DNA of 64,000 nucleotides from Squalus acanthias. Taxonomy: Eukaryota. Under the pieces are notes generated by a model. That model worked only from the letters and a program-made list of their open reading frames with translations. It did no database searches and was not told where the DNA came from. Location: the NCBI GenBank assembly GCA_030390025.1, contig JASTWF010000323.1, positions 434,001-498,000 on the forward strand, given 5' to 3'. Position 1 is the first letter of the stretch; the number at the start of each line of letters is the position of its first letter. The position numbers were made by a program, and so were the translations under genes. Positions 2,869-62,434 of this stretch are shown here, in pieces.

Positions 2869-2870
2869 AT

Positions 2871-3404
2871 ATTGCGCCAGAAATTCGGATCTCGACGGGT
2901 GAGTACGCGCCCGGTGGTGAATTAAGTAAAATTTAAACATTTTTTCCACAGGTTTATCTTTTTAAAATACCTTAAAGAAAGGTACGTTTATTTTTAGGCC
3001 CGTTAAAAACTGTAAGTAATTTTTTCAAAATTTTAAATTTTTGTTTAAAATAGTTAATTTATGTAATTTATATCTATTTTAAGAACGTGATTTTTTTTTG
3101 ATTTTTTTTAAGTTTTAGTTCTGTTTTGGGGCCGATCTCTATTCACAGATTTGACAGGTCTTCCCGTCCAGTCTATGAATGGAGATTCCCTGCTTCGATT
3201 GGCTACCCATGGCCCAGGCGATCCCAGGGGACGCTTCGAACTAACTGCGCCCCTGGGATCTGCGAGCACTGCACATCGGCAGCTGGAGGAGGCCCAGGAC
3301 AGGAATCCCACGCGGACCCACAGCACAACGGCAGGCGCGCTCGGTAAGTGCAGGTCGGGGGCTTGCTCTCGCGGGAAGCCTCCGACCCGAATTTGTGGCC
3401 CAAT
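2871..3404. mobile_element. MITE-like TIR element, copy 1 (internally shortened)
   Basis: Ends ATTGCGCCAGAAATTCGGATC and GACCCGAATTTGTGGCCCAAT are inverted repeats; interior homologous to copies at 9.3, 41.1, 52.8 and 60.3 kb. Confidence 0.8.
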
Positions 3405-8137: not shown

Positions 8138-8233
8138 TGCTCTTGGTGAGGCTCGAACTCACAACCGTCGGCATTTCTCGAGCCTGCATTGTCATATAAG
8201 TACCAGCGCGCTAACCGATTGCGTCACTACAGC
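8138..8233 (-). tRNA. tRNA-Ile(TAT), intron-containing, several substitutions (possibly a pseudogene)
   Basis: GCTGTAGTGACGCAATCGGTTAGCGCGCTGGTACTTATA-intron-ATGCCGACGGTTGTGAGTTCGAGCCTCACCAAGAGCA. Confidence 0.85.
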
Positions 8234-10003: not shown

Positions 10004-11059
10004 TTTTGGAACCGCTGAAATTGAATCTTTCTCCGGCGGATGTTCCAGGTTTACGTATGAAAATGCCCTCGAGGTGCAAATTTGGAGATGCCGTGTAGTG
10101 GGACAAGTTAAAGGATCAGCACAGTTAATGCCGAGAACAAATTAAACAGTAGCTCAAGCTGATGAACCTTACACTGGTGAAAATCCTGGGCGGAGATTTA
10201 GAGGAAACGACACTGGGAGGGGCTGCATTGCGATTCTAACACTTCTCCAAGCACATTCCGGGCAAGCCATCGACCGTAAAAAGAGGGCTTGCAACGGGAA
10301 TGGAACTGCGGGCACACGTGACAGAGCATTGGTATTGGGAATGTAAAACTACTGTCTCCAATACTCTGCTTACCTGAATCAGTCAAAATGCAATGGACAA
10401 TACATGAATAATCCATTTTATTCAACGTGTAATAACCAGTTGATTGGGTCTGTATTCCAGACAGAGTGACACTTTAGTCTAGGGGTATGAATCTCGCTTT
10501 GGGGATTGTAGATTGAAATTTGCGAAAGGTCCCGCATGAGCCCCTTTTTAACGTCGACTTCTGATATTGGACTTGTGCTCTAAACTTGTTCCAATCCGCC
10601 TAATAAATAATCGGTCAGGACACAAATCATTCTCCATCATTCTCCAGCGACTTTGGAGGAAGGTCAATGCAAACTGCCATGTAAATATCATGGCTTTAAT
10701 GACAATAAATTAAAATATTTTTTTAGCAATCACGTTGTAAGTATATTTGGGAGTGTCTATGTTAGATACAAATGTATTTGTGAGTTGTTATTGTGTTAGA
10801 TGTAAATGCTTCTGCACCTCTGTTCGTTATAAATTTATTTAGATTTGTCTATATTATTTATTACTGTATTAGTGTGGGGGAATCTGTGTTAGTTGTAAAT
10901 GTAGCTCTGAGCGCTGCAAATATCCGTCCGGCCCCATTCTACCTTATCATTGCTCCCACGTGGGACTCGGCAGACCATCTGTTAAATTCGGATTCAACTT
11001 TTGCTTTTATTGCTATTTAGAAAATGTGAGGTTTAGAAAGTAATAGCTCTGCACCCATC

Positions 11060-12396: not shown

Positions 12397-12491
12397 AATG
12401 CGAACTAGTGCAGCCGCAGTTACATTTAAAAGATTGTGGCCCTTTCACACGAGAAGAAACTCACCCTGGAGGGTCATAAAAAGAAAAGAAA

Positions 12492-12566
12492 TGTCTCACT
12501 GGGAATCGAACGCAGGATCATTTCTGTTTACTAGACAGGGGCTTTGAACAGCTAAGCCAAAAAGCC
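12492..12566 (-). pseudogene. tRNA-Thr(AGT) pseudogene
   Basis: TGGCTTAGCTGTTCAAAGCCCCTGTCTAGTAAACAG..GATCCTGCGTTCGATTCCCAG. Confidence 0.75.
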
Positions 12567-13679
12567 AAAGCACAACTGCCGTGCCTTACCTCCACTCACT
12601 GAAATCTATCAGCTACCTGTAACTGCCTGTTGGAGTGTGAGGCCGTTTATTTATTTATCCATCTCTCTTGTCTATTCCCGCAGGTGTCCCGATGCTGTCT
12701 GTATCTCTCGCTGCGATTATCTCAGTGTCAATCTGTGGGGTTATTCTGAATTAATACGAGTGTTTGTGCCTTACATGAAATAAATGAGAGGATCAGACAA
12801 TTGTTCCTCTGACACTGGGGAAGAAATGAGCCAACAATTATAACAATATATTATTTATTGTGATGCACCAAATACAATATTCCATCTCGAATGATTTAGG
12901 TTCAATTCTGTGCAAAAAGAAACTGTGACCCAAACGTGTTTCCAATTCGCCGCCTTTTAACTGACGTCACAAACGCCACCATTGCACCTCAAGGTGATTC
13001 ATAACTAATAACCAGAGAAGTCAAGCAGTAAAACGGTATTTGTAGAAAGGCTTGTGAGACTGTGGAACGCACTGGCCCAGAGCAGCAGATTTAAAATAAG
13101 GTTTAAAACCGGCAGCGTGTGGGAGGAAAGAGAGAGAGAGGCAGGAGAGCCACAGGTAAGATCACCTTCGAAACCACTGGTCCCGCATCTGCTTTAAATC
13201 CCCCCACTGTATTTAAACACATTTAATGTCATATTCATATATTGATGCATTTGAGCATTATATGAGATTTAACGCTGTCGCTGGTCTAAAATAATTGCTT
13301 TATTTATTTGATCCCACCCGCTGTGTTAAGTCTCTACCCTGAATATTTATCTTCAACCTAGAATCAGTTTATATTCTGGAGACAAGGTTTCAGCAGCCGG
13401 GGGGCAGGGAGCAGAGGCTGAAGCTGATCTGTGTCATGTGAGAGCAGAACGCAACATTCCTGCTTTTTATTTTCATTATCCTGCTGAATATTGGATACTG
13501 TTCTCAACATCGTACATTACCGTTAAATGTCGGAGGTTTTCCTTTATTGTAATGATCGCTGCGATTCTTCGCGATTTGATGAATTTGCAGCAAATTAAAT
13601 ATCACCCAACCGTAATGGCCAATAGTAAACAGGGGTCAGCGATTTGAGAATTTAAATTGTTGGAGGCGATGCGCTCGCA

Positions 13680-19589: not shown

Positions 19590-21510
19590 AATCATAGAAT
19601 CAGAGAAATTTACAACACAGTAGGAGGCCATTCGGCCCATCTTCTCCGTGCCGGCCGACAAAGAGCTATCCACCCTAATCCCACTTTCCAGAACTTGGTC
19701 CGTAGCCTTGTAGGTTATGGCAATTCAAGTGCATAGCCAAGTACTTTTTAAATGTGATGAGCGTCTCTGCCTCTACCACACTTTCAGGCAGTGAGTTCCA
19801 GACCCCCACTACCCTCTGGTGGAAAAAACTCTCCTCAAATCCCCTCTAAACTACCGACCAATTACTTTATATCTATGCCCACTGGTTATTGACCCTGCTA
19901 CTAAGGAAAATAGGTCCTTCCTTTCCACTCTATCCAGGCCCTTCATAATTGTATACACCTTAATTAAGTCTCCCCTGAGCCTCCACTGTTCCAAAGAAAA
20001 GAGCTCCAGCCTATCCAATCTTTCCTCATAGCTAAAATTACCCAGCCCAGGCAACATCCGCGGAAAACTGCTCTGCACCCTATCTAGTGCAATCACATCC
20101 TTCCTGTAATGTGGTGACCAGAACTGCAAGCAGTATTCTAGCTGTCTCTATTACTATCTTCGCTTGTACTATCCGACACACTCACACATTTATGCACCTT
20201 ATTCCTCTTTTATACTCCTTTTTGCTGGTGCCCACCTCCCTGCCAAGCTAGATTAAACCCTCCCCAACAGCACTAACAAGAGAATATTGGTCCCGGCTCT
20301 GTTGAGGTGTAACGCGTCCGGTCTGTACACGTCCCACCTTCCCTAGAAACGTTCCCAATGCCTAATCAAACTAAAGCCCTCCCTCCTGCACCATCTCTCC
20401 AGCCACGCATTCATCTGTTCTATCCTACTATTCCTGTACTCACTAGCACGTGGCTCCGGGAGTAATCTGGAGATTACTACATTTGAGGTCCTGCTTTTTA
20501 ATCTCTCTTCTTCGCTCCCTAAACTCTGCGGCAGGGCCTCGTCCCTCTTTCTGCCTATGTCGTTGGTACCGATATGGACAACGATCTCTGGCTTTTCACA
20601 CATCCCCCTCAGAGTGTCCTGCAGCCGCTGAGTGACATTCTTGACTTTGGCACCAGGGAGGCCACATAACATCCTGGAGTCATGTCTATGGCCGCAGAAA
20701 CACCTGTCTGCTCCCCTAACTATCGAATCCCCTGCCACTATAGCTCTTCCAATCTTTTTCCTCCCCGCCCCGTGCAGCTGAGCCACTCCTGGTGCCGTGG
20801 ACAAGACTCTGGTTGCACTCCGCAGAGGAACCATCGCCCTCACCACTACTCAGAACAGAATACTGGTTGGAGAGCGTGCTGCACTCAGTGGACTCCTGCA
20901 CTACCTGCCTGGCCCACCTCTTCTGTCTGGCAGTCACCCATTCCCTCTCTGCCTGCATACTCTTAAGCTGCGGGATGACCACCCCGTAACTCTCAGACTC
21001 GCGGATGCACCGCAGTTACTCCAGGCGCCGCTCAGGTTTCGAAGCCCAGAGCTCGAGCTGCTGTAGCTGGCGACACTTCCTGCACATGTGGTCGCCCAGG
21101 CTACGTGAAGTGTTCAGGACTACCCACATGGCACAGGATGTGCACTCCACGGGACTGAGCTGCCCTGCCATGTCTTTATTTAATAGACTAAGAACTAACC
21201 CAGCAGAACTAAACTTAAAAATTAACAAAAAACACCTACCAGCTCCTCACCAATCAGCTCCTTCCCTTGTGCCGACGTCACACTTTCGGATTCTGCCTCT
21301 GTTGAGTTGCTGCCTCTCCGGCTCTGCTCCCGCTCTGGTCCCGCCCAGGTCCGCTGCTGCCTTCCAAATAAGTCCAGTCTTATTTTATTTATTTACTTAG
21401 TTAAAGTATTTAATCAACGATTACTTGTAGTTATATTAATTAGTTTAACTAGTAAAGCTATACATTTAATGCAGTATTTTATAGTTTCTCTCTCCTAGTT
21501 TAGAGAGAAA
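19590..21510 (-). mobile_element. CR1 LINE, internally deleted (5'UTR, ORF1 zinc-finger/SGNH esterase, 3' end of ORF2)
   Basis: MAGQLSPVECTSCAMW..CRKC, VAGDSIVRG..VHIGTNDIG; QFWSPHYRKD..YEERL..RRLRGDLI-like segment; CR1 tail. Confidence 0.9.
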
Positions 21511-24409: not shown

Positions 24410-26500
24410 TCATGCCTCACGTATACTACGAGGGTTGGAAAGTACATTCTGAGCGTGTAAACGTCATCTGTTTGCCACATTTTGGCCAGTAAATCATTTC
24501 ACCTGCATTACCGGACTGCAGAAGGTCATTTTGCATTTACCACACACGTCCCTTAATCTGCTGTTAAAACCAAATGAGACTAAGGTATGCTTTCAGCGAA
24601 TAAGTAAATGGACACTCGAATTGTTACAGCGCGACCTGGACATTACGCCTAAACGAACCACGCTGTTACCCCTTATGCTCGCCTATGAGGGAAGCCCACA
24701 CCAGTGTCCATTACCAGTGCTAGATATGGAACCAAATCCAATAAAGGCTAACGGCATACCCGGAGCTCGAAATGTGTATGTTGACGGGTCATCATACTAT
24801 GTAGATGGCCATCCTAGAACTGGATAGGCCCTTATTGATATCTACGCTCACGATTGGTCAGAGGGATTTCAAGTTCTCGTCCACTCCTCACAACAGGCAG
24901 AACTGATTGTTGTAATTCTAGCCGTACATTACACGACTATGGATGAAACAAATATCTGGTCCGACAGCAGTTACGTCTGTAACACAGTGATGGCTCTTCC
25001 CCGCTATAATACAAATGAGTTTTGCTCATCAGATGGTAAATCTTCATTACATTCTGGTCTCCTCCGTAAGCTATGGAAAATGCTTCAGGAACGAGTCGCC
25101 CCTTGTCACGTTGGTAATGTAGCAGCCCATCAGAAAGATTCATCTACCCATTCCCGAGGTAACCAAATGGCCAATCGCTTTGCTAAGGAGGCGGCCGAGA
25201 CCGAAATGTTACTACCTTGGTGGGTGATGAATGATACTCAGACGCACGTAGTGGGGACGGTGACTAAGACTAAAGCCATTGATCTTTTGGCCCTACAGGA
25301 TTCATATGCCCCTTATGCACAGGTAATAGCCTGGCATCAACAGGGATGCACGCTACCAGCACCCACCCTATGGGCAGACTCCACTGCAATGCAACAAGGT
25401 GTAGATAAAAACCCTCCCCTACTAATGACGAGGAATAAAGAGGGAGACCTAGTAGTTTGTATTCCTCCTCAGTTAAAGGAAAACATTCCAACTCTGTTTC
25501 ATTCTCACCCGACGGCGGTCCATTACTCAGCGGCCTCTACACTACAAAAGTTATTACCTGTTTGCTGGTGGCCTGGAATGGAACAGTATGTGGAACAATA
25601 TGTTAATTGTTGCTTGCCATGCCTACAGACAAACCTCCCTTCTTGTTCAAATCACGCTTTACTTTGGTCACAGTCGCCTCCTGAGGGACCATTGACACAC
25701 TGACAGATTGACTTTATTGGTGCACTAACAAAATCCAAGGGAAACTATGAGTACGCACTTGTGATAATCGATCAGTTCATTAAATGGATTTAGGCTTTTC
25801 CCCCTGAGTGAGGTGTTCTGTAGATGGGGATTGCCATTACAAGTGGATAGCGATCAGGGTTCACACATTACGGGGACAGTTTTCACAACTCTGCAAGAAA
25901 TGTTACAGATAAAACATAAATTGCACATTGCACACCATCCACAATCATCAGGGATTGTGGAGAGGGGAAATCGAACTTCAATGACAATGTTGCAGAAGTT
26001 GTGTACAGAACACCCCAATCAGTTGGCTGAAATGTTGCCTTTATGTCTAATGGCAATACGCTCGACCCCACACGTGACTAGGAGGGTAAGTCCATATGAT
26101 GCTATTACTGGGAGGCAAATGCGGATACCAGGACATGTAACATTGGGAAACAACACACCATTAAAACTACAACCATGTAGCCAAAAATGGTTAGAAATCT
26201 TGAAAGATAATATGGACAAGGTGAAAAAGCTGGTGGCCATTAACATAGGCAAATCGCGGGAACAAATCAAGCGATATTATGTTAAGAGGGTAAAACCATT
26301 TGAGTATGATGTTGGAGACCGAGTAATGTTACAAAATTTCTCTCGAAAGAAACACTCATTCGAGATAAAATGGACGGGCCCTCATACCATAGTAGATAAA
26401 ATAAATCCGCCTGTGTATCTACTGAATGTCCCATAAGGTCCGAAGGGAGAACCAAAAATAAATGTTTCCATATCAATCAGATGAAAACTGTTAAGAATTA
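24410..26500 (+). pseudogene. pol: pol pseudogene: degenerate RNase H (tether), RNase H, integrase
   Basis: ASRILR..CKRHLFATFW..ISKWTLEL; YVDGSS, SQQAEL, IWSDSSYV, AAH..GNQMANRFAK; H-H-C-C (HSHP..HY..CLPC); IDFIG, DSDQGSH, HPQSSGIVER, KWTGPH; stops and frameshifts. Confidence 0.9.
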
Positions 26501-30998: not shown

Positions 30999-31921
30999 TC
31001 ATCCTTTAATGAATCTTACAATCAGAGTAAAGGGATACTTCCCCACATTCTTCAACTGCTCTCTGAACTTAGTCTGTGTCACGGCATAAATCGCAGTGTT
31101 TGTGCAGCAGCTCAGCAGCTGCAGCATCAATCCCATTTCCAGTACGTAAGTAGGTAGATATACAGCATAATATATGAGATTTTCAGTTGGAGACAACAAA
31201 TAATACATCCGGCTCCATATAGAATTCACCATAAACATTGCCCACAACAGAATGAAATTGCCCGAGATAACAAACAGTAAAATGATGGATTTCCTGCGGC
31301 TCTCCATTTCTGGATCTCTGGGACTCTCCCCACAGCTGGGACCCCGGAGTCTCCTCCGGGCTCTGCTGGCCACTAAAATGTGTCTGACGGTTAAAACATT
31401 GAGCAGCAGGATAAGAACAAATGGGACACACGGGGTGAGAACATAATGAAGGAACTCGATTGCTGCCCAGAACCGTGAAAACATAACATAATATTTTACC
31501 CAGCAAAACCAGGGGGTGTTGGAAAGCCAATACCGATCTCCCAACATAAAATACCAGAAAATATTCTTTAAACAGCTCAGCACAGTCACTGTTCCCAGAA
31601 CCACAGCCGCCGTTTTCTCGGTGCAATATTTTGTTTTCAGCTTCTGGCAACAAATGGCCACAAATCGATCAAAAGTGAAAGTGACAGTGAACCAGACAGA
31701 ACAGTCCGTGGCTGCATAAAGCAGGACGGCGTGGATATTACAAAGGTGGATGGAATGTACGAAATAAAACTGATGCTTATAAACAATCGGAATCTGCCTC
31801 AATATCAGGTCCAGAATAACGACCAGTAGATCCGCCGCCGCCATGGCCACCAGGTAGCGAGTGACACACTTGGAGAGACCGCACTTTCCCCGAGACAGGA
31901 TCACAATCGTCACTAAGTTAA
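30999..31921 (-). CDS. GPR139-like: Class A GPCR, GPR139/GPR142-like, coding exon 2 of 2
   Basis: NL..IVILSR..YLVAMAAADLL..TFDRFVAICC..LLN..NTAIYAVTQTKFR; acceptor TTTCCCTTCCTCGCAG|TTAAC; no stops. Confidence 0.92.
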
Positions 31922-33916
31922 CTGCGAGGAAGGGAAATAAACAGGGAAATTAGACATCAGGCTGGGAGCAAAATCAGCAGTTTGATGGAATTCCGGTTGA
32001 AATCTGCAACTCATTAACGACACTCACTGATATAATCTAATTCTATTACCCGTGGAGCTGAATGCAGGGTTTATTGTAAGAATAATCAGAAATACATCGT
32101 ATTATCAATACATGAGATGGGGATAAATGCAACATTAAAGTAAGAGATGTTTGATTAAGGAGAGATTAAATGATAGATCTAACTTTAGCCCAGCAGACAA
32201 AAGCAACGCCCGGGAGACAGGGACACACAGGACCAGAACCTCTCTGGATGCCTTCGTGTCCCGGGATCAGTCAGCATTTGGAGCGGTGCAATTCGCTTCT
32301 GTGCCCCTGTGTTAGGGAGGGGGAAATGCCGCTCGGATCCCTGCTCCTGGTTAGAAGATGACTTCTATTTAGAACAGAAAATGAATGGAGCAACAAAATA
32401 CAGAAACTGCAACCTTGGCGTGCAATAATAGCAGGCAATTGTATTTAAAATGTACGGATATATTATGCAAGCACTAAGATGACACGTACAAGTGCACTGC
32501 CGTTATAAAGTTAACTGGGCTGTAAGAAGCGTTTTGACAATTGAGTTTTCTACATTTTTGTTGAAATACACAAATTCCAGCTCATTGAAAGAAGATTTTC
32601 AAAATAGCATTGCAAAGAATGAATTCTGAATTAAAATAAGTAGTTATCATTGACCAGATAATGTCCCACTAAATGCATTTATTTGCATCAAAATAAGACG
32701 AATTACCCCAGAGGCAAAGTGCCGCTGAATGCTTTTGTAAAGCATCTGTACACAAGTGGCAGAGATTTATCATAGTACTTTTCCACCTGTTGTTTACCAA
32801 TTTGTGCAGAGAATATTAGATGGGAAAATATGAAAGGATTTTTTTAGCCTCAGTACCTCTGTTACAATCAGCTGGGATTGTTTATCCTGAAGTACAGCAG
32901 AAACAATAGAAAATGAGTCTGGGTGTCACTGAGAGATCCACTGAATTGTGAAAGACAGGCATGGGATCAAATTTTAAATTCCAAACAACGCTGGGAAATA
33001 AATGTGTTGAAATCTGGCTTAATGAACATTTTGTGAGAATGTAAATTGTCCTTGTAATCCTGTTCTAACCATCAGAAGCAGTTCAACTAATACTGAACAG
33101 GAGATGGCGGGAAAGGAGACACTGACTGGAAATGAATGATTAGCGGAAATTTCAGATATTTAGCGATGTGTGTGTATGATCTGACAGGATTTGGTCCTGT
33201 GACTCTGGGCAAGTAACCATACCGAGCATTGGCTGAAAACAAATGCAAAACACTGCGGATGCTGGAAATCTGAAAGTAAAACTGAAAATGCGGGGAATAC
33301 TCAGCAGGCCAGGCAGCATCTGTGGAGCAAGAACAGAGTTAATATGTCAATTCGATGATCTTTCGCCATTGGGTGAAAAGTCTCCTAAACCAAGACAACA
33401 TTCTTCTGATCTGTTACAAATGTTCAGTGGAGGTAGCAGAACGAAATTCGTCAAATAAAGAGTCTCCAACAATATCTTTGCTTGAATTGAATATAGAACA
33501 TTTGAATCTTGGTAACACCGTATCCTGTTCAGAATCAATAGCTGACAGCAGCGCGGATGGGATGGAGAATGCCAAGGAGATAAATACAGTTACACATTAT
33601 TCATAGAAATAATAGCCAGCTGCAGAGACTTAACAGGGACACCAACAGCAGCGAGGGGGTGGCGGAGTAAATGACAAGAACCGTAATACAATGAAACATG
33701 AATTACATAATTAATAGCTTGCTGCAGAGACTGACCAGGGACATCAACAGCAGCGAGGATGTGCCATTAATTTTAAACAACAACCCATGCATTAACAAGG
33801 ATGCAATAACTTGTAACACAGAATAGCATTAATAACAATACACCACGTAAAATAGCAAGAATAATGTTTCAGTGTAACATGGTTAATATAATTAATAACT
33901 GGACATAGATACTTAC

Positions 33917-34519: not shown

Positions 34520-37500
34520 AGTGATGGAACAATGGGACTCGGGTACATGGCACTGCTCCCGCCACAGTCCAGGAATTTCATACCCAGGTTCGCTGATGTT
34601 ACACTGCGCCCGCCTCCGTCCAGGAATTGCATTCCGAGGGACGCCTAGATTACTCAGCTCCCACTTCAATCCAGGAATTTCTTTCCCAGGCCATCTAGAT
34701 TACAATGCTCTCGCCTCAAACCAGGAATTTCATTCGCAGGGTCGCCTAGATAATATTGCTGCCGGTACAATCCAGGAATTTCATTCACAGGGTCGCCGAG
34801 ATTACACTGCTCCCGCCTGAGACCATGAATAGCATTCCAAGCGCCGGCTAGAGTACATTGCACCCGCCTTAGTTAAGGAATTTAATTCCCAGGGCAGGCT
34901 GGATTGAATTGCTCCCACCTCAATCCAGGAATTGCATTCCCAGGGCCGCAGAGATTGCACTGCTCCTGCCTCAATCAAGGAATTGCATTCCCAGGGCCGC
35001 CTAGATTAGACTGTTCCAGTCTCATTGCAGGAATTTCATTCCCAGGGCCGCCTAGATTGCACTGTCCCTCCACAATCCGGGGGTTTCATTCCCAGGGATG
35101 GCTGGATTACACTGCGCCCGTCTCAGTCGAGGAACTCCATTTTCCATCACCGTATAGAATACATTTCACCCGCCCCTGGCCGGCAATTTACTTCCCAGGC
35201 GCGCCTAGATTACACAGCTCCCGCCTCAGTCGAGGAATTTCATTCCCACGGGCACCAAGATTGCAATGCGCCCGCATTAGTCCAGGAGTTTCATTCGCTG
35301 GGGTACATAGATTACACTGCTCCCGCCTCTGTCCGACAATTTAATTGCCAGGTGCGCCTAGATTTCACAGCACCCGCCTCAGTCGAAGAATTTACATCCT
35401 AGGGGCACCGAGATTAAACTGTTCCCGCCTCAGTCCAGGCATGTCATTCCATGGGACCCCAAGATTACACCAATCCCGCCTCAATGCAGGAATTACATTC
35501 CCAGAGGCGGCTAGTTTACACTGCTCCCACCTCAGTTCAGGTATTTCAATGCCCGAGACTCCTAGATCACACTATTGCCGCCTCAGTCCATGAATTTCAT
35601 TCTCAGTGCCGTCTAGATAACACTGCTCCCGCCTCAAAAGAGGAATTTCATTCCCAGGGCCGCCTGGATTACACTGCTCCCGCCTCAATCAAGGAATTTC
35701 ATTCGCAGGTTCGCCTAGATTAGGCTGCTTCCGGCACAATCCAGGAATTTCATTCACAGGGTCGCCTGGATTACATTGAACCCGCCTCAGTTCAGGAATT
35801 CCATTCCCAGGGCAGGCTGGATTACACTGCTCCTGCCTCAATCCAGGAATTGCATTCCGAGAGCCGCCTAGATTACACTGCTCCCGCCTCAGTCCAGGAA
35901 TTTCATTCCCTGGGGCGGCAAGATAAAATGCTCACGCCACAGTCCGGCAATTTCATTCCCAGATGCACCTAGATTACACAGGCCCCGCCTCAGTACAGGA
36001 ATTTCATTCTTGGGACACCTAGATTACACTGCGATCGACTGCGTCCAGGAATTTCATTCCCAGGGCACCGAGGTTGCACTGCTCCCGCCACATTCCAGGC
36101 ATTTCATTCACAGGGGCACCTATATTACAATGTACCCCACACCTTCCCGGAATTTCGTCCCCAGGGCCGCCTAGATAGCACTTTCCCGCCTCAATCAGGA
36201 GCTTTCATTCCCAGGGCCGGCTCTATAACATTGCTCCCGCCTCAATCCAGGAATTGCATTCCCAGGACCGCCTAGATTGCACTGCGCCCGCCTTAATCCG
36301 GGCCTTTTATTCCCAAAACCGGCTGGATTACACTGCTCGCGCCTGAGACCTGGAATTCCATTCCCAGCGCCGCCTAGATTACATAGCACCCGCCTCAGTT
36401 CAGTATTTTTCTTCCCAGTGGCGCCTATATTACACTCCTCCCGCCGCTGTCCATGAATATCATACCCATGGCAACCTAAATTACACTGCTCCTGTATCTG
36501 TCCAGGAATGTCATTCCCCTGGCTATCTCGATTACACTGCTCCTGCCTCAGTCCAGGATATTTATTCCTAGGGGCACCTAGATGACACTGCTACCGCCTC
36601 AGTCCAGCAATTTAGTTCCCAGCGCGTCCGAGTTTGCACTACTCCCGCCTCAGTCCCTGAATTTCGTTCCCAGGGGCACCTATATTACACTGCTTCCGCC
36701 TTCAGTTCAGGAATCTTATTCTGAGGGGGAACCTAGATTACACTGCTCCCGCCTCGGTCCAGGACTTCAATTCACAGGGCCGGCTTAATTAAACTGCTCC
36801 CGGCTCAATCCAGGAATTTAATTAACAGGGCCGCCTAGATTACACTGCTCCCGCATTAATCCAGTAATTACATTCCCACACCATCTAGATTACATTGTTC
36901 CCGCCTCAATCCATGTCTTTAATTCCCAGATTCGTCTGGATTACACTTCTCCCGCCTCAGTTCAGGAATTACATTCCCGGGGCCACCTAGATTCCACCGC
37001 TCCCGCCTCAGACCAGGAATTACATTCCCAGGGTCGCCAAGATTACATTGCATCCACCTCAGTTCAGGAATTTCATACCCAGGAGCGCCTAGATTACACT
37101 GCTCCCGCCTCAGTCGAGGATTTTCATTCCCAGGCCATCCGGATAACACTGCTCCCGCCTCAATCCAGGAATTCTATTCACAGGGCCGCCTAGATTACAT
37201 TGCTGCCGCCTAAATCCTGGAATTCCCTTCCCAGGGCCGCGCAGGTGACATTTCACACGCCTCAGTACATACATTTACTTCCCAGGGCCGCCTAGATTAA
37301 ACTACTCCCACCTCAATTCCGAAATGTCAATGCCAGTGCCACCTAGATCAAACTATTCCCGCCTCAGTCCTAGATTTCATTCTCAGGGCCGCCTAGGTTA
37401 GACTGCTCCCTTCTCAGTCCGTCAATTTCATTCCCAGAGCCGCCTATATTAAAATGCTCCAGCCTCAATGCAGCAATTTCATTCCCAGAGCCGCCTATAT

Positions 37501-37575
37501 TAAAATGCTCCCGCCTCAATGCAGCAATATCATTCCCAGAGGCGCCTGGAATACACTGCTCCCGCCTCAGTCCAG
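34520..37575. repeat. 51-bp tandem satellite
   Basis: About 60 diverged copies of CCCAGGGCCGCCTAGATTACACTGCTCCCGCCTCAGTCCAGGAATTTCATT. Confidence 0.95.
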
Positions 37576-39067: not shown

Positions 39068-39156
39068 GGCCCCGTGGCCTAATGGATAAGGCATCTGACA
39101 TCGGTGCTGATTGTTCAGTTATCAGAAGATTGCAGGTTTAAGTTTTGCCGCGGTCG
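39068..39156 (+). tRNA. tRNA-Arg(TCG) with a 16-nt intron at 37/38 (mutated, probably a pseudogene)
   Basis: GGCCCCGTGGCCTAATGGATAAGGCATCTGACATCGG[TGCTGATTGTTCAGTT]ATCAGAAGATTGCAGGTTTAAGTTTTGCCGCGGTCG. Confidence 0.85.
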
Positions 39157-39401: not shown

Positions 39402-39474
39402 GATGAGGTGGTCGAGAGGTTAAGCCGATGGACATTGTGCGCTGCACGCATGGGTTCAAATCCCATCTTCAGTG
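39402..39474 (+). pseudogene. tRNA-Ser(GCT) with anticodon loop deleted
   Basis: GATGAGGTGGTCGAGAGGTTAAGCCGATGGAC^ATTGTGCGCTGCACGCATGGGTTCAAATCCCATC. Confidence 0.8.
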
Positions 39475-40370: not shown

Positions 40371-40461
40371 GGGCTCGTTCGGGTTTTGAACCTAAGATCT
40401 CTTGCAATTTATCAACAGTTAAATTTCCGAAGTGAGAATCATACCGCTTAAACAACGAGCC
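40371..40461 (-). tRNA. tRNA-Pro(CGG) with a 19-nt intron at 37/38 (mutated)
   Basis: GGCTCGTTGTTTAAGCGGTATGATTCTCACTTCGGA[AATTTAACTGTTGATAAAT]TGCAAGAGATCTTAGGTTCAAAACCCGAACGAGCCC. Confidence 0.85.
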
Positions 40462-44952: not shown

Positions 44953-45027
44953 GGCTCGTTGGTCTAGGTGTATGATTCTCGCTTCGGGGTTGTTATAGTT
45001 GAAATGCGAGAGATCCCGGACGAGCCC
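44953..45027 (+). pseudogene. tRNA-Pro(CGG) with a 16-nt intron; T-arm deleted
   Basis: GGCTCGTTGGTCTAGGTGTATGATTCTCGCTTCGGG[GTTGTTATAGTTGAAA]TGCGAGAGATCCCGGACGAGCCC. Confidence 0.85.
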
Positions 45028-47345: not shown

Positions 47346-50300
47346 GAGTCATAGCGTCATAGAGTTATACAGCACAGAAAGAGGCCCTTCGGCCCATCAT
47401 CTCCGCACCGGCCATCAAGCCCTATCTATTCTAATCCCATTTTCCAGCACTTGGTCCGTAGCCTTGTATGCTATGGCGTTTCAACTGCTCATCTAAAGGC
47501 TTCTTGAATGTTGTGAGGGTTCCTGTCTCTACCACCCTTTCAGGCAGTGAGTTCCAGATTCCAACCAAACTCTGGGTGAAAAAGTTTTTCCTCAAATCCC
47601 CACTAAACCTCCTGCCCCTTACCTTCAAACTATGCCCCCTGGTTATTGACCCCTCTACTAAGGGGAAAAGTTCTTTTCTATCTACCCTATCTGCCCCTCA
47701 TAATTTTGTACACCTTAATCAGTCCCCCCTCAGCCTTCTCTGCTCTAAGGAAAACAACCCTAGCCTGTCCAGTCTCTCTTCATAGCTGAAGCGCTGCAGC
47801 CCAGGTTACATCCTGGTGAATCTCCTCTGCACCCTCTCCAATGCAATCACATCCTTCCTATAGTGTGGCGACCAGAACTGCACACAGTGTTCCAGCTCTG
47901 ACCTAACTTGCGTTTTGTACAGCTTCATCATAACCTCCCTGTTCTTGTCTTTTATGCCTCAGCTAATAAAGACAAGTATCCCATAGGCATTTTTAACCAT
48001 CTTATCTACCTGTCCTGCTGCCTTAAGGGATCTATGTACATGCACACCAAGGTCCCTCTGATCCTCTGTCCTTCCTAGGGTCCTACCATTCATTGTATAT
48101 TTCCTTGCATTGTTAGTCCTCCCAAAATGCATCACCTCACACTTTTCAGGGTTAAAATCCATTTGCCACTGTTATGCCCATCTGACTAACCCGTCTATAT
48201 CGTCCTGTAGCCTGAGGCTTCCCTCCTCGCTATTTACCACCTCACCAATTTTCGTGTCATCTGCGAACTTACTGATCATACCTCCTAAATCCATATCTAA
48301 ATCATTAATGTAAACTACAAACAGCAAAGGACCCAGCACCGATCCCTGCGGTACACCACTGGACACAGGCTTCCAGTCACAAAAACAACCTTCGACCATC
48401 ACCCTCTGCCTCCTGCCACTAAGTCAATTTTGGATCCAATGTGCCAAGTTGCTCTAGATCCCATGCGTTTTTACATTCTTGACCAGTCTCCCATGCGGGA
48501 CTTTGTCAAAAGCCCTACTGAAGTTCATGTAGGTCACATCAACTGCACTACCCACATCCACACATCTAGTCAGCCCCTCGAAAAATTCAATCAGATTGGT
48601 CAGACATGATCTCCCCCTGACAAAGCCATGCTGACTATCCTTGATTAATCCTTGCCTCTCCAAGTGGAACCTAATTCTGTCCCTCAGAATTGTTTCCAAT
48701 AATTTCCCTACCACTGATGTTAGGCTCAGTGGCCTGTAATTCCCTGCTTTATCCCTACTATCCTTCTTGAATAATGGTGCTACGTTATCTGTTCTCCACT
48801 GCACTGGCACCTCCCCTGTGGCCAGAGAGGTTCTGAAAATTTGTGTTAGAGCCCCTGCAGTCTCCTCCCTTGCCTCACACAGCAGCCTGGGATACATCTC
48901 GTTTGGGCCTGGGGATTTATCCACTTTTAAGCCTGCTAAAACCGCTAGTACCTCCTCCCCCTCAATACTAATTTGTACAAGTATATCACCATCCCCCTGC
49001 CTGATTTCTATGCCTACATCGTCCTTCTCCATAGTGAACACAGATGCAAAATATTCATTTAAAACCCCACCTACATCTTCTGGCTCTACACACAGATTGC
49101 CACTTTGGTCCCTAATGGGCCCTACTCTTTCCCTGGTTATCCTCTTGCCCTTACTTTACTTATAAAACACCTTGGGATTTTCATTTATTTTGCCCGCCTG
49201 TGTTATTTCATGCCCCCTCTTCGCTCTCCTAATTTATTTTTTAAGTACCCCCCTGCAGTTTCTATACTCCTCTAGGCCTTCCACTGTTTTTAGTCCTTTG
49301 TATCTGCCAAAAGCCTCCGTTTTTTTTACTAATCCATTCTCGTATGTCCCTTGACATTCAGGCGTCCCTGGGCTTCTTGGTTCTACCCTTGACCTTTACG
49401 GAAACATATTTCCGCTGTACTCTCTCTATTTCCTTTCTGAAAGACTCCCACTGCTCTGATGTGGATTATCCTACAAGTAGCTGATCCCACACCACTTTGG
49501 CCAGATCCTGCCTTATCATATTTAAATCGGCCTTCCCCCAATTTAGAACCTTTATTCCGTTCCATCTTTGTCCTTTTCCATGAATGCCTTAAATCTCACC
49601 GAATTATGGTCACTGTCACCAAAATGCTCTCCTACTAACACTTCTACCACTTGCCCGGCTACATTCCCTAGAATTAGGTCCAATACCGCCCCCTCTCTTG
49701 TAGGACTTTCTACATGCTGGCTCAAAAAGCTCTCCTGGATGCACTTTAAGAAATCCGCACCCTCTAAGCCTTTCACACACTGACTATCCCAGTTAATATT
49801 GGGGAAGTTGAAATCCCCTACTATTATTACCCTACTATTAATCCTACAGTTCTCTGAGATTTGCCTACATATCTGTTCCTCTATGACCCGCTGACTGTTT
49901 GGGGGCCTATAGTTAACTCCCAGCAAAGTGTTTGCCCCCATTTTGTTTTTAAGTTCTACCCATATGGCCTCATTAGAGGAACCTGCTAAGATATCATCCG
50001 TCCTTACAGCAGTAATTGACTCCTTGATTAACATTGCGGAACCCCCATCTCTTTTACACCCTCCTCTGTCTCGGCTGAAGATTCTATACTCCGGAATATT
50101 GAGCTGCCAGTCCTGCACCTCCCTTAATCATGTCTCTGTGATAGCAACCATATCATACTCCCAATTGTTCATCAACAACTTTAATTTATCTGCCTTACTC
50201 GCAAGACTCATTGCATTAAAATAAATGCCATCCAGCCTTGCCATACTCCCTTGTGCCGTTAAATGTTTCCTCTGCCTTCCAGGCTGACTTGTTTTTTCCT

Positions 50301-52828: not shown

Positions 52829-53525
52829 TAATGGCCCGTATTTTCCGATCGCAGGCTCCCCGCGGGCGGAGGCCTGCGATCTGAAAAAAATCTGACCTGA
52901 GGACTCCCGGGACCCACACGCTTCCGCTACTGGGCCTCTCCAAACTGCAAGTGCGCAGGGCCCACGTATCCCAGAGGCGCATGTCGTTCGCAGCGTCTTT
53001 GGGATGACCTGGGCCATGGGGAACCAATCAAAGAAGGGAATCTCCCTTCATACACTTGAAAGGATGACCTGTCAAATTTATGAATGGAGATCACCCCAAA
53101 AACATAGTAAAACTTTAAATACATGTTTAAACAATCACAGTTTTGAAATGACCTGAAATTACAATAAATTAAGAATTTTAAACAAAAATTAATATTATGA
53201 AAAAAATATTTAAAGTTTTTTGCGGGACTAAAAATAAACTTACCTTTTTTAAAAGTATTTTTAAATGAGAAATCAGTGAAAAACAATTTATTTTTTACTT
53301 TTTTCAACACCTATCCTGGTAAAAGCAGACCTTACGCCTGCTTTTACCAGGCGCAAGAATTGTAAGGGTTTCCTGCGGGCGGAGGGTCTCCAAATAGCGG
53401 AAATATCCGCCTACAGAGACAATTCTCCAGGCGCTGTGCATGCCTGAAACCGGCATTTCCGATGTCCCTACGGGTGGGTACACAGCACCTACACAGCCGT
53501 AGGGATCGGAATATCCGGGCCATTA
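52829..53525. mobile_element. MITE-like TIR element, copy 4
   Basis: TAATGGCCCGTATTTTCCGATC ... GATCGGAATATCCGGGCCATTA; closest to the copy at 9264. Confidence 0.88.
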
Positions 53526-54544
53526 TCCGGGCGAGTGAGAGAACCATGGTTCACAAAAGAGGTTGAATGTCTAGTCAAGAGGAAAAAGGAAGCGTATGTA
53601 AGGATGAGAAAACAAGGTTCAGTTGGGTCGATTGAGGGGTACAAGGTAGCAAGGAATGAGCTAAAAAAAGAGCTTAGGAGAGCTAGGAGGGGGCATGAGA
53701 AGTCCTTGGCGGGTCGGATCAAGAAAAACCCCAAGGCCTTTTACTCTTATGTGAGAAATAAAAGAATGGCCAGGGTGAGGGTAGGGCCGGTCAAGGACAG
53801 TAGTGGGAACTTGTGCATGGAGTCAGAAGAGATAGGAGAGGTGATGAATGAATACTTTTCGTCAGTGTTCACCGAGGAGAGGGGCCATGTTCTTGAGGAT
53901 GAGAGTGTGATAAAGGTGGATAGGCTGGAGGTGGTAGATGTTCTGAGGGAAGATGTTTTAGCAATTTTGAAGAACCTGAGGGTCGATAAGTCCCCTGGGC
54001 CAGATGGGATATATCCTAGGATTCTTTGGGAGGCAAGGGAGGAGATTGCAGAGCCTCTGGCTTTGATCTTTGGGTCCTCACTGTCCACCGGGATGGTGCC
54101 AGAGGACTGGAGAGTGGCGAATGTTGTTCCTCTCTTCAAGAAAGGAAATAGGAATGACCCTGGTAATTATAGGCCGGTTAGTCTTACTTCGGTGGTTGGT
54201 AAGATAATGGAAAAGGTCCTGAGGGATAGGATTTATGACCATTTGGAAAGGGGCAACTTAATCAGGGAAAGTCAACACGGATTCGTGAAGGGTAAGTCTT
54301 GCCTAACAAATTTGATTGAATTCTTTGAGGAGGTAACTAAGTATGTAGATGAAGGTAGAGCAGTTGATGTCGTATACATGGATTTTAGTAAGGCGTTTGA
54401 TAAGGTTCCCCATGGTCGGCTCATGAAGAAAGTAAGGAGTTGTGGGATAGATGAAAATTTGGCCGATTGGATAAGTAACTGGCTATCTCATAGAAATGAG
54501 AAGTCGCACAACACCAGGTTATAGTCCAACAGATTTATTTAATT

Positions 54545-54586
54545 TTACAAGCTTTCGGAGCAGTTCGCTCCTTCGTCAGTTAAGTT
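54545..54586 (-). ncRNA. Minimal hammerhead ribozyme motif in the Penelope 3' region
   Basis: TTAA-CTGACGA-AGGAGC(GAACT)GCTCC-GAAA-GCTT-GTAA. Confidence 0.65.
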
Positions 54587-54806
54587 TAGCAGTGAGAGAA
54601 TCTCCCAGAATTCACAATTTAAATACAGACAAAATATATTCAAATCTTTCCCACATCAAAGAGCATAGCCAAGACAATGAGATGTGTCCCAGGGGGTCCA
54701 ACGTGTCAAACGACCTGCTGCCTGCATATCCTGTCAATCTGTGTAGGTTCTTGTGTTAGCCTTTTTTTAAAAAAAAACACCTGGGAAGACCGGCCATGAT
54801 GTCAAG

Positions 54807-55763
54807 TCACGTTCTGTATCGTGACATGAACCCGATATCGCGATTGAGGCCCTCCTCATGAGTGCGGAAATTGGCTATCAGTTTCTGCTCTATGATTTTG
54901 CGCTGTCGTGTATTTCGAAGGCCGCCTTGGAGAACGCTTACCCGCATATCCGAGGCTGAATGCCCCTGGCTGCTGAAGTGTTCCCCGACTGGGAGGCAAC
55001 CCTCCTGCCTGGCGATTGTTGCGCGGTGTCCGTTCATACGTTGTCTCAGTGTCTGCATGGTCTCGCCGATGTACCATGCTCTGGAGCATCCTTTACTGCA
55101 ACGTATCAGGTAGACAACGTTGGCCGAGTCACATGAGTATGTACCGTGTACCTGGTGGGTAGTGTCCTCACGTGTGATGATGGTATCTGTGTCCATGATT
55201 TGGCATGACTTGCAGAGGTTGCCGTGGCAGGGTTGTGTGGTGTCTTGGTTGCTGTTCGCCTGAAAGATGGGTAATCTGCTGCGAACGATGGTACCTTTGA
55301 GGTTAGGCGGCTGCTTGAAGGCGAGTAGTGGAGGCGTGGGGATGGCCTTAGCAAGGTGTTCGTCGTCATCGATGACATGTTGAAGGCTGCGAAGAACATG
55401 GCGTAGTTTTTCCGCTCCGGGGAAGTACTGGACGACGTAGGGTACTCTGTTGGTTGTGTCCCGTGTTCGTCTTGTGAGGAGGTCTATGCGGTTTTTCGCT
55501 GTGGCCCGTCGGAACTGTCGATCGACGAGTCGAGCGTCATATCCCGTTCTTACGAGGGCGTCTTTCAGTGTCCGTAGGTGTCCATCGCGTTCCTCCTCGT
55601 CTGAGCAGATCCTGTGTATTCGCAGGGCTTGTCCATAGGGGATGGCTTCTTTAACGTGGTTAGGGTGGAAGCTGGAGAAGTGGAGCATCGTGAGGTTGTC
55701 CGTGGGCTTGCGGTAGAGTGAAGTGCTGAGGCGTCCGTCTTTGATGGAGATTCGTGTGTCCAA
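54807..55763 (-). CDS. Penelope RT thumb / GIY-YIG endonuclease ORF (partial; one stop codon just upstream)
   Basis: 318-aa ORF with VVYLIRC-x-YIGET GIY-YIG motif. Confidence 0.85.
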   Translation of the reverse strand: MDTRISIKDGRLSTSLYRKPTDNLTMLHFSSFHPNHVKEAIPYGQALRIHRICSDEEERDGHLRTLKDALVRTGYDARLVDRQFRRATAKNRIDLLTRRTRDTTNRVPYVVQYFPGAEKLRHVLRSLQHVIDDDEHLAKAIPTPPLLAFKQPPNLKGTIVRSRLPIFQANSNQDTTQPCHGNLCKSCQIMDTDTIITREDTTHQVHGTYSCDSANVVYLIRCSKGCSRAWYIGETMQTLRQRMNGHRATIARQEGCLPVGEHFSSQGHSASDMRVSVLQGGLRNTRQRKIIEQKLIANFRTHEEGLNRDIGFMSRYRT

Positions 55764-57049
55764 GAATGAAACCGATTCTCAGGAGTAGTCCATGGTGAGT
55801 TTGATGGTGGGATGGAACCTATTGATGCTATCGTGTAGTCCTTTCAGTGATCCTTCGCCGTGGGTCCAAAGGAAGAAGATGTCGTCGATGTATCTGGTGT
55901 ACAGCGTTGGTTGGAGGTCCTGTGCAGCGAAGAAGTCTTGCTCGAACTTGTGCATGAAGATGTTGGTATCTCATAGAAGGCAGAGGGTGGTGGTGGATGG
56001 AACATTTTCGGACTGGAGACCAGTTACCAGCGGTGTGCCACAGGGGTCGGTGCTGGGTCCTCTGCTGTTTGTGATTTTTATCAATGACTTGGAGGAGGGG
56101 ACTGAAGGGTGGATCAGTAAATTTGCTGATGACACCAAGATTGGTGGAGCAGTGGATGAGGTGGAGGGCTGTTGTAGGCTGCAAAGAGACATTGATAGGA
56201 TGCAGAGCTGGGCCGAAAAATGGCAGATGGAATTTAACCCTGATAAGTGCGAGGTGATTCATTTTGGTAGGGCAAATTTGAATAAGGATTACAGGGTCAA
56301 CGGCAGGGGTCTGAGGAACGTGGAGGAGCAGAGGGATCTGGGGGTTCATATCCACAGATCTCTGAAGGTTGCCACTCAAGTGGATAGAGCAGTAAAGAAG
56401 GCCTATGGTGTGTTGGCGATAATTAACAGAGGGTTTGAGTTTAAGAACCGTGAGGTTATGCTGCAACTGTACAGGACCTTGGTGAGACCACATTTGGAAT
56501 ATTGTGTGCAGTTCTGGTCACCTCACTATAGGAAGGACGTGGAAGCATTGGAAATAGTGCAAAGGAGATTTACCAGGATGCTTCCTGGTTTGGGGGGGAG
56601 GTCTTATGAGGAAAGATTGAGGGAGTTGGGGCTTTTCTCTTTAGAGCGGAGGAGGATGAGAGGCGACTTAATAGAGGTTTATAAGATGATGAGGGGGATA
56701 GATAGAGTGGATGTTCAGAGACTATTTCCTCGGGTAGAGGCAGCTGTTACAAGGGGGCATAACTATAAGGTGCATGGGGGGAGATATAGAAGGGATGTCC
56801 GAGGTAGATTCTTTACTCAGAGAGTGGTTGGGGTGTGGAATGGTCTGCCTGCTGTGATAGTGGAGTCGGACACTTTAGGAACTTTCAAGCGGTTATTGGA
56901 TAAGCACATGGAGCACACCAGAGTGATAGGGAGTGTGATAGCTTGATCTTGGTCTCGGACAATGCTCGGCACAACATCGAGGGCCGAAGGGCCTGTACTG
57001 TGCTGTACTGTTCTATGTTTCTATGTTTCTATTATGTTATCGGCTCTAT

Positions 57050-62362: not shown

Positions 62363-62434
62363 AAACACGGACGGGGGCCGAACCCATGATCTTCGGTTTA
62401 TGAGACCGACGCCTTACCACTTAGCCACCGCGCC
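62363..62434 (-). tRNA. tRNA-Thr(CGT) body carrying a CAT anticodon
   Basis: GGCGCGGTGGCTAAGTGGTAAGGCGTCGGTCTCATAAACCGAAGATCATGGGTTCGGCCCCCGTCCGTGTTT. Confidence 0.85.

What the first reader, a model, noticed from the sequence alone, without database searches (positions are those of the whole stretch)
40371..40461. Intron-containing tRNA-Pro(CGG), an isoacceptor outside the usual mammalian intron set
Seen: a full-length Pro(CGG) body with 19 extra nt (40407-40425) exactly one base 3' of the anticodon, the TSEN 37/38 position. The antepenultimate intron base A could pair with U32. Known: mammalian tRNA introns are essentially confined to Tyr-GTA, Ile-TAT, Leu-CAA and Arg-TCT. Inference: because a second Pro(CGG) copy has a different intron at the same position, this lineage probably has a real intron-bearing Pro(CGG) family rather than a random insertion.
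Basis: partly seen in the sequence, partly recalled or inferred. Interest (0 to 1): 0.75.

Follow-up and report, generated by a model that had tools for sequence, protein, structure and literature searches.

The report
Intron-bearing proline tRNA gene family
The flagged gene is a decayed copy, but in this large vertebrate (probably shark) genome most proline tRNA gene matches and nearly all matches for one arginine tRNA carry a short intron, which human genes for these tRNAs are not reported to have.

Summary
On the minus strand, 40461-40371 is a tRNA-Pro(CGG) body with a 19-nt insert at position 37/38. This copy is a pseudogene: 13 of 72 exon bases differ from the intact gene, and its unit's exons are not significantly better conserved than its spacer (p=0.13). 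It belongs to a decayed copy of a 1.62-kb tandem unit (Ser-GCT, Arg-TCG with intron, Pro with intron).

Exact-motif counts in the genome, intron-bearing versus intronless: Pro-CGG 152:1, Pro-TGG 25:4, Pro-AGG 38:4, Arg-TCG 418:1. All 30 fetched CGG intron genes have exons identical to the intronless gene. Between array subfamilies exons differ at 1-5 of about 225 sites and spacers at 8-13%.

Best reading: canonical TSEN-type introns in isoacceptors outside the human four, amplified in arrays. Splicing and expression were not shown. [quoted passage not shown] I found no paper naming these isoacceptors, but could not check GtRNAdb or other fishes.

The parts
40426..40461 (-). 5' exon of a decayed tRNA-Pro(CGG); 6 of 36 bases differ from the intact gene, position 37 is A instead of G
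40407..40425 (-). 19-nt intron at 37/38, related to the 18-nt intron of the intact tandem-array genes (13 of 18 aligned bases match); third-last base A
40371..40406 (-). 3' exon; 7 of 36 bases differ; anticodon stem and T-stem partly broken
39068..39156 (+). Decayed tRNA-Arg(TCG) of the same repeat unit, with a 16-nt intron at 39105-39120
39402..39474 (+). Decayed tRNA-Ser(GCT) of the same unit; 9-nt deletion across the anticodon
37940..40771 (.). About one and a half decayed copies of the 1.62-kb Ser-Arg-Pro tandem unit; 76-82% identical to intact arrays in the long aligned blocks
44953..45027 (+). Second Pro(CGG) pseudogene: 16-nt intron at 44989-45004, 13-nt deletion removing the T-arm; lies in a block 82-90% identical to locus L048
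10468..10543 (+). Third Pro pseudogene (TGG): 17-nt intron resembling that of the dispersed C21 genes, T-arm also deleted

Best explanation
The flagged sequence is a dead copy from a living gene family. In this genome most tRNA-Pro genes (CGG, TGG, AGG) and nearly all matches for tRNA-Arg(TCG) carry a 16-18 nt intron at the canonical 37/38 site. Most are in homogenised 1.62-kb tandem arrays (Ser-GCT, Arg-TCG with intron, Pro with intron); a few intact Pro genes with other introns lie elsewhere. Shown: gene structure, motif counts, exon conservation, and decay of the window copy. Inferred: at least some intact genes are transcribed by RNA polymerase III, cut by the TSEN endonuclease (which measures from the mature tRNA body and uses the U32/C32 to intron-purine pair) and ligated by RTCB, giving tRNAs identical to the products of the few intronless genes. 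Inferred: the three Pro anticodons share the array intron because base 34 switched inside the array. The window copy is a displaced piece of such an array that is decaying and is unlikely to give a tRNA.
For: Counts, intron versus no intron: CGG 152:1, TGG 25:4 (22, 23), AGG 38:4 (25, 26), Arg-TCG 418:1 plus one array copy with a partial deletion (44, 45, 79, 80); reversed-pattern controls 0. Exons: 30 of 30 fetched CGG, 5 of 6 AGG and 5 of 12 TGG intron loci match the intronless gene apart from base 34. Array L020 versus five other array loci: exon differences 1, 1, 1, 5, 4 of about 225; introns 4-5 of 35; spacers 8-13%; Fisher p from 1e-9 to 8e-6. Three intact intron lineages (array, L049, L007/L008) have 0 exon differences while their flanks are at 0.40-0.52 identity against a random baseline of 0.46. 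Third-last intron base is A in 46 of 48 intron-bearing Pro loci, and both exceptions have damaged exons; in the Arg introns it is G opposite C32. This matches the A-I pair rule given in PMC10275265 (passages). The AGG array intron pairs over 5 bases with the anticodon loop in the canonical register. The C21 genes have TTTT four bases downstream. Window copy: exon 28 of 217 versus spacer 190 of 1110 differences, p=0.13.
Against: No transcript, splice junction or intron circle was seen. One intact intronless gene exists for Pro-CGG and one for Arg-TCG, each with a T-run terminator, so the intron genes are not strictly needed. The main CGG array precursor folds poorly: forcing the cloverleaf costs 9.2 kcal/mol, against a median of 1.7 (quartiles 0.8-2.8) for 81 Pro precursors from metagenomes and 0.7 for the C21 genes. 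Its intron pairs with the anticodon loop over only 2 bases in the canonical register. The array Pro genes have no TTTT until +56, only a broken T-run at +8. Neighbouring array units are identical (1341 of 1341 bases), so 152 copies are not independent. Gene conversion could also homogenise exons. 7 of 12 fetched TGG intron loci have exon changes. Array counts may be inflated by duplicated contigs (L003 and L004 look identical around the gene).
Confidence: 0.72

Rival explanations
1. The intron-bearing genes are a silent, satellite-like amplification. The few intronless genes supply all tRNA-Pro and tRNA-Arg(UCG), and the introns are never spliced in vivo.
For: Intact intronless genes exist for every anticodon checked. 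The CGG array precursor misfolds in prediction and has a weak terminator. In zebrafish most predicted tRNA genes lie in heterochromatin and lack accessibility (PMC11574265, passage). The window is full of decayed tRNA copies.
Against: Exons are far more conserved than spacers and introns between array subfamilies. The dispersed C21 genes have perfect exons, a TTTT terminator and a well-folding precursor. The A-I pair fits both isotypes (U:A in Pro, C:G in Arg).
Confidence: 0.2
2. On origin rather than function: Pro and Arg-TCG introns are an older vertebrate or chordate state that sharks kept and mammals lost, and they are already listed in GtRNAdb for other fishes. The family is then real but not new.
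For: Three intron lineages have flanks diverged to the random baseline, so the intron is old within this lineage. tRNA introns are both gained and lost in eukaryotes (PMC4090602, passages). Pro introns occur in other eukaryotes: 125 motif matches in 119 metagenome loci, and S. cerevisiae Pro-UGG and S. pombe Pro-CGG have them.
Against: The shark preprint singles out sharks for abundant intron-containing loci among the vertebrates it compared. Ten paper searches found no vertebrate Pro or Arg-TCG intron.
Confidence: 0.3
3. The 19 nt are a random insertion in one pseudogene or in a tRNA-derived SINE and are unrelated to tRNA splicing.
For: The window copy itself is a pseudogene.
Against: Its insert is related to the intron of intact array genes. 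215 Pro motif matches carry an insert in the anticodon loop; in all 48 fetched it lies at 37/38. The repeat unit is a three-gene tandem array.
Confidence: 0.02

Closest known systems
Human intron-containing tRNA families Tyr-GUA, Ile-UAU, Arg-UCU, Leu-CAA (PMC10275265, passages)
   Same: Short intron at 37/38, purine at the third-last intron base opposite pyrimidine 32, and families that mix intron-bearing and intronless genes (human Arg-UCU 5 of 6, Leu-CAA 5 of 7).
   Different: Here the isoacceptors are Pro-CGG, Pro-TGG, Pro-AGG and Arg-TCG. Copy numbers reach tens to hundreds in homogenised tandem arrays.
[quoted passage not shown]
   Same: Same phenomenon at the level of total counts, if this genome is a shark; that paper also describes large tRNA clusters.
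   Different: The passages I saw do not name the isoacceptors, the array unit or the residual intronless genes. Its Fig. 3A or supplements might.
Fungal intron-containing tRNA-Pro: S. cerevisiae Pro-UGG (PMC4090602) and S. pombe Pro-CGG with intron-dependent m5C34 by Trm4a in vitro (PMC6380293, abstract and Discussion)
   Same: Same isotype and intron site; offers a possible function (wobble C34 methylation by an NSUN2-type enzyme).
   Different: Different exon bodies and unrelated-looking introns in the metagenome matches. In budding and fission yeast all members of an intron family carry the intron (PMC10275265), whereas here intronless genes persist.
Mammalian Arg-UCU family with one brain-specific intronless gene (PMC10485636, passage)
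   Same: A lone intronless gene beside an intron-bearing majority.
   Different: Here the lone intronless Pro-CGG and Arg-TCG genes give the same mature sequence as the array genes; tissue specificity is unknown.

Membership tests
Canonical eukaryotic (TSEN-spliced) tRNA intron | Located between positions 37 and 38 | tested here: met
   Window copy and 48 of 48 fetched intron-bearing Pro loci
Canonical eukaryotic (TSEN-spliced) tRNA intron | Short length (about 14-60 nt) | tested here: met
   16-18 nt in fetched Pro loci, 19 nt in the window copy, 17 nt in the array Arg-TCG
Canonical eukaryotic (TSEN-spliced) tRNA intron | A-I pair: pyrimidine 32 with third-last intron purine | tested here: met
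   A in 46 of 48 Pro loci and in the window copy; G opposite C32 in the Arg introns
Canonical eukaryotic (TSEN-spliced) tRNA intron | Intron pairs with the anticodon loop (bulge-helix-loop) | tested here: inconclusive
   5 bases in the canonical register for AGG arrays L055 and L056, 4 for L049, only 2 for the CGG arrays and C21 genes (5 in a shifted register for C21)
Canonical eukaryotic (TSEN-spliced) tRNA intron | Intact mature tRNA domain around the intron (family level) | tested here: met
   30 of 30 fetched CGG intron genes equal the intronless gene in both exons
Canonical eukaryotic (TSEN-spliced) tRNA intron | Excision by TSEN and exon ligation in vivo or in vitro | not testable with these tools
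   No read-level data were obtained
Functional tRNA-Pro(CGG) gene (the window copy) | Intact cloverleaf, G37, intact internal promoter bases | tested here: not met
   13 of 72 changes, 4 stem pairs broken, G37 to A; exons not constrained relative to spacer, p=0.13
tRNA-derived SINE | Dispersed tRNA-like head with its own body and tail | tested here: not met
   Intact members are complete tRNA genes in a three-gene tandem unit or single genes with T-run terminators; target-site duplications were not searched for

The most novel reading that the evidence does not exclude
The shark lineage gained canonical introns in tRNA-Pro and tRNA-Arg(UCG), isoacceptors that lack them in humans, and amplified them until they make up over 95% of motif matches. 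This gives a two-tier system: a few dispersed intronless genes for basal supply, and splice-dependent array genes for high demand such as oocytes. The intron may also license m5C34 on Pro-CGG, as in fission yeast. It would be a datable case of tRNA intron gain in a vertebrate, with mature-identical intron and intronless genes side by side.
Probability: 0.2. Interest if true: 0.7.

Novelty: new variant of a known kind. Interest (0 to 1): 0.45.

Why it matters
Why tRNA introns exist and how they are gained is an open question, and the vertebrate picture rests largely on four human families. A vertebrate with introns in three Pro isoacceptors and Arg-UCG, next to intronless genes that give the same mature tRNA, is a natural experiment on what an intron does for expression, modification and decay. 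It also names which tRNAs contribute to the reported excess of intron-containing loci in sharks. The flagged copy itself is only a fossil marker of the family.

Tried and rejected
Retrocopy test: the single intronless Pro-CGG gene (L037) is not a processed copy with a CCA tail. It has a T-run terminator and sits tail-to-tail with an intronless Pro-AGG gene, so it gives no proof of splicing.

Expression: the run search on one array unit gave no RNA holder listed; this is no evidence either way. No reads were laid (one search returned no data), so splicing and the presence of the intron in other organisms remain open.

Rfam tRNA search of the genome scored 63 of about 369,000 candidates, all 72-73 nt long, and was useless for an intron census. 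Six stretches around those hits held Lys-TTT, Cys-GCA and one Cys-like gene, none with an intron.

The Arg-TCG body with a TCT anticodon matched once, so the Arg-TCG intron genes do not look like anticodon-switched Arg-TCT genes. This relies on my recall that Arg-TCT has a different body.

Origin of the Pro intron as a copy of the anticodon arm: local similarity gave shuffle p of 0.01-0.04 for 3 of 9 introns and 0.09-0.93 for the other 6, uncorrected. Not accepted.

One or several intron gains: unresolved. Introns of the three lineages share 7-12 matches over 17-21 columns.

Dropped row: the L020 versus L006 comparison, because the stretch taken from L006 probably did not cover the whole unit.

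Metagenome scan: matches have other exon bodies that I read as fungal or protist (not verified); uninformative on vertebrates.

Literature: ten searches. The Schmidt and Matera 2020 review was not held. No per-anticodon intron table for fishes was found in the supplements searched; one supplement was unreadable, one file was not searched, and bioRxiv supplements are closed.

Full report
Observation. The finding lies on the minus strand. Read from 40461 to 40371 it is a 91-nt tRNA-Pro(CGG) body with 19 extra bases at 40425-40407, one base 3' of the anticodon; the third-last inserted base is A opposite U32. Default ARAGORN and both Rfam scans miss it. ARAGORN finds it only at a lowered threshold and mislabels it Arg. 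A two-exon match with at most 7 mismatches per exon occurs once in the window and never in 50 shuffled windows.

The copy is a pseudogene. Against the genome's intact intronless gene (L037) it differs at 13 of 72 exon bases. G10 and G37 are changed, two anticodon-stem pairs and one T-stem pair are broken, and a T-loop base is altered. It lies in about one and a half copies of a 1.62-kb unit that also holds a decayed Arg-TCG gene with a 16-nt intron (39068-39156) and a decayed Ser-GCT gene (39402-39474); the long blocks are 76-82% identical to intact arrays. Across that unit, exons differ from the intact array at 28 of 217 sites and spacer at 190 of 1110 (p=0.13), so no constraint is detected. 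Its insert matches the array intron at 13 of 18 bases.

The family. The window is G000:C2484:434001-498000 of a 3.71-Gb genome. Exact-motif searches gave, with versus without an insert: Pro-CGG 152 versus 1, Pro-TGG 25 versus 4, Pro-AGG 38 versus 4 (the pattern allowed GGG but all listed matches were AGG). That is 215 of 224 Pro matches. Arg-TCG gave 418 versus 2 short-gap matches; one is an intact intronless gene and one an array copy with an internal deletion. Reversed-pattern controls were 0. Of the 100 CGG matches listed, 91 are on C26, 7 on C322 and 2 on C21, most spaced about 1,623 bases apart; 52 were not listed. The unit is Ser-GCT, Arg-TCG with a 17-nt intron, and Pro with an 18-nt intron. 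The counts miss variant copies and may include duplicated contigs. Ser-GCT, His-GTG, Glu-CTC, Lys-TTT and Cys-GCA genes seen in fetched loci have no intron at 37/38, so the trait is isotype-specific among those seen.

Signs of function. I fetched 30 of the 152 CGG, 12 of the 25 TGG and 6 of the 38 AGG intron matches, the first ones listed. Exons equal the intronless gene, apart from base 34, in 30 of 30, 5 of 12 and 5 of 6. Neighbouring array units are identical (1341 of 1341 bases), so this is not 30 independent observations. The better test is between subfamilies. Array L020 differs from five other array loci at 1, 1, 1, 5 and 4 of about 225 exon sites, 4-5 of 35 intron sites and 8-13% of spacer sites (p from 1e-9 to 8e-6; a sixth comparison, L006, was dropped as probably misaligned). 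Three intact lineages (the 18-nt array, 16-nt L049 and 16-nt L007/L008 on C21) share identical exons while their flanks are near the random baseline. The third-last intron base is A in 46 of 48 Pro loci and G opposite C32 in the Arg introns, as the A-I rule requires (PMC10275265, passages). The AGG-array intron pairs over five bases with the anticodon loop in the canonical register.

Against function. The main CGG-array precursor needs 9.2 kcal/mol to adopt the cloverleaf, because its intron can compete with the anticodon stem; 81 metagenome Pro precursors have a median of 1.7 and the C21 genes 0.7. It pairs with the loop over only two bases in the canonical register, and its first TTTT is at +56. 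Intact intronless genes exist for each anticodon checked. Gene conversion could mimic exon conservation. No RNA evidence was obtained.

Other DNA. One array unit is held at word shares of 0.39-0.82 by 17 of 24 listed runs, under nine coded organism labels and three unlabelled rows, in 11 studies. The unit is therefore not peculiar to this assembly, although the best holders may be its source.

Mechanism. Most likely (0.72) these are canonical introns removed by TSEN and joined by RTCB, in at least part of the intact genes, giving tRNAs identical to those of the intronless genes. Structure, counts and conservation are shown; transcription and splicing are inferred from the known pathway. The main functional rival is silent arrays (0.2); zebrafish tRNA genes are mostly inaccessible (PMC11574265, passage). 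A random insertion is excluded. A possible role, untested, is intron-dependent m5C34: S. pombe Trm4a methylates C34 of tRNA-Pro(CGG) in vitro only on the intron-containing form (PMC6380293, abstract and Discussion), and human Leu-CAA needs its intron for m5C34 (PMC11408192, passage). That cannot explain the AGG, TGG or Arg-TCG introns, which have no C34.

What is known. The review lists human introns for Tyr-GUA, Ile-UAU, Arg-UCU and Leu-CAA. Pro introns are known in yeasts (PMC4090602, passages). bioRxiv 10.1101/2025.06.08.657570 reports abundant intron-containing tRNA loci and large tRNA clusters in sharks (five passages seen; figure and supplements not seen, and they may list anticodons). 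Ten searches found no paper naming Pro or Arg-TCG introns in a vertebrate. Also opened without such a statement in what I saw: PMC4536317, PMC2888827, PMC8450103, PMC10485636, PMC11417395, PMC9858662 (passages), PMC8044555 (no occurrence of 'intron' in text or supplement) and PMC3964593 (supplement search only). GtRNAdb, other fish genomes and the Schmidt and Matera 2020 review were not available, so novelty against bony fishes is untested. Six look-ups in the scan's own notes showed no earlier report of this family.

Verdict. Observation confirmed; interpretation supported and widened; the flagged copy is a pseudogene. New variant of a known kind, interest 0.45.

Noticed in passing
G000 C26, C322, C603, C3245 and other contigs; window 39068-39156: tRNA-Arg(TCG) is almost entirely intron-bearing: 418 motif matches versus 1 intact intronless gene on C23. 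There are about twice as many Arg matches as Pro intron matches (215), which is unexplained.
   Followed up: partly
G000:C26:41616690 and 8 other places: Nine Arg-CCG-anticodon matches, all with a 19-nt insert resembling the Arg-TCG intron; no intronless match to that motif. They may be anticodon-switched or decayed copies.
   Followed up: no
window 44953-45027 and 10468-10543; L038; L048: A similar 13-nt deletion between the two short direct repeats flanking the T-loop recurs in Pro copies with different introns, which suggests a deletion hot spot or conversion among pseudogenes.
   Followed up: partly
L009-L059: The same array intron occurs with CGG, TGG and AGG anticodons, and whole arrays differ in anticodon. 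The intron end fits the AGG loop best in the canonical register, so AGG may be the ancestral array anticodon.
   Followed up: partly
L037, L050, L061, L063: The nine intronless Pro motif matches lie in four small dispersed groups on C5, C6, C7 and C20; three groups include oppositely oriented genes. One more intronless TGG variant in L061 is missed by the strict motif.
   Followed up: partly
window 3747-63168: Many decayed tRNA genes (His-GTG three times, Thr-AGT twice, Ser, Leu, Lys-like and Val-like, and a probable Ile-TAT with intron at 8138-8233 on the minus strand; some isotype labels are from my recall). The only default ARAGORN calls are Thr at 12491-12567 and Met-CAT at 62363-62434.
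   Followed up: partly
window 31002-31949 (-): 316-codon open frame with a rhodopsin-family 7TM receptor domain (PF00001).
   Followed up: no
window 24828-25700 (+); 48457-50127 (-); 53448-56943 (+); 20346-20849 (-): Retroelement fragments: RNase H plus integrase zinc domain; endonuclease and reverse transcriptase pieces; a GDSL-like domain.
   Followed up: no
window 4-2871 and 34551-37575: Long C-rich minisatellites: 41-bp period with 70 copies and 51-bp period with 59 copies; also 30-bp and 38-bp arrays.
   Followed up: no
L185-L187, L189, L190: Lys-TTT genes, repeating every 1.77-1.79 kb in L185-L187; ARAGORN found one tRNA per unit and no intron.
   Followed up: partly
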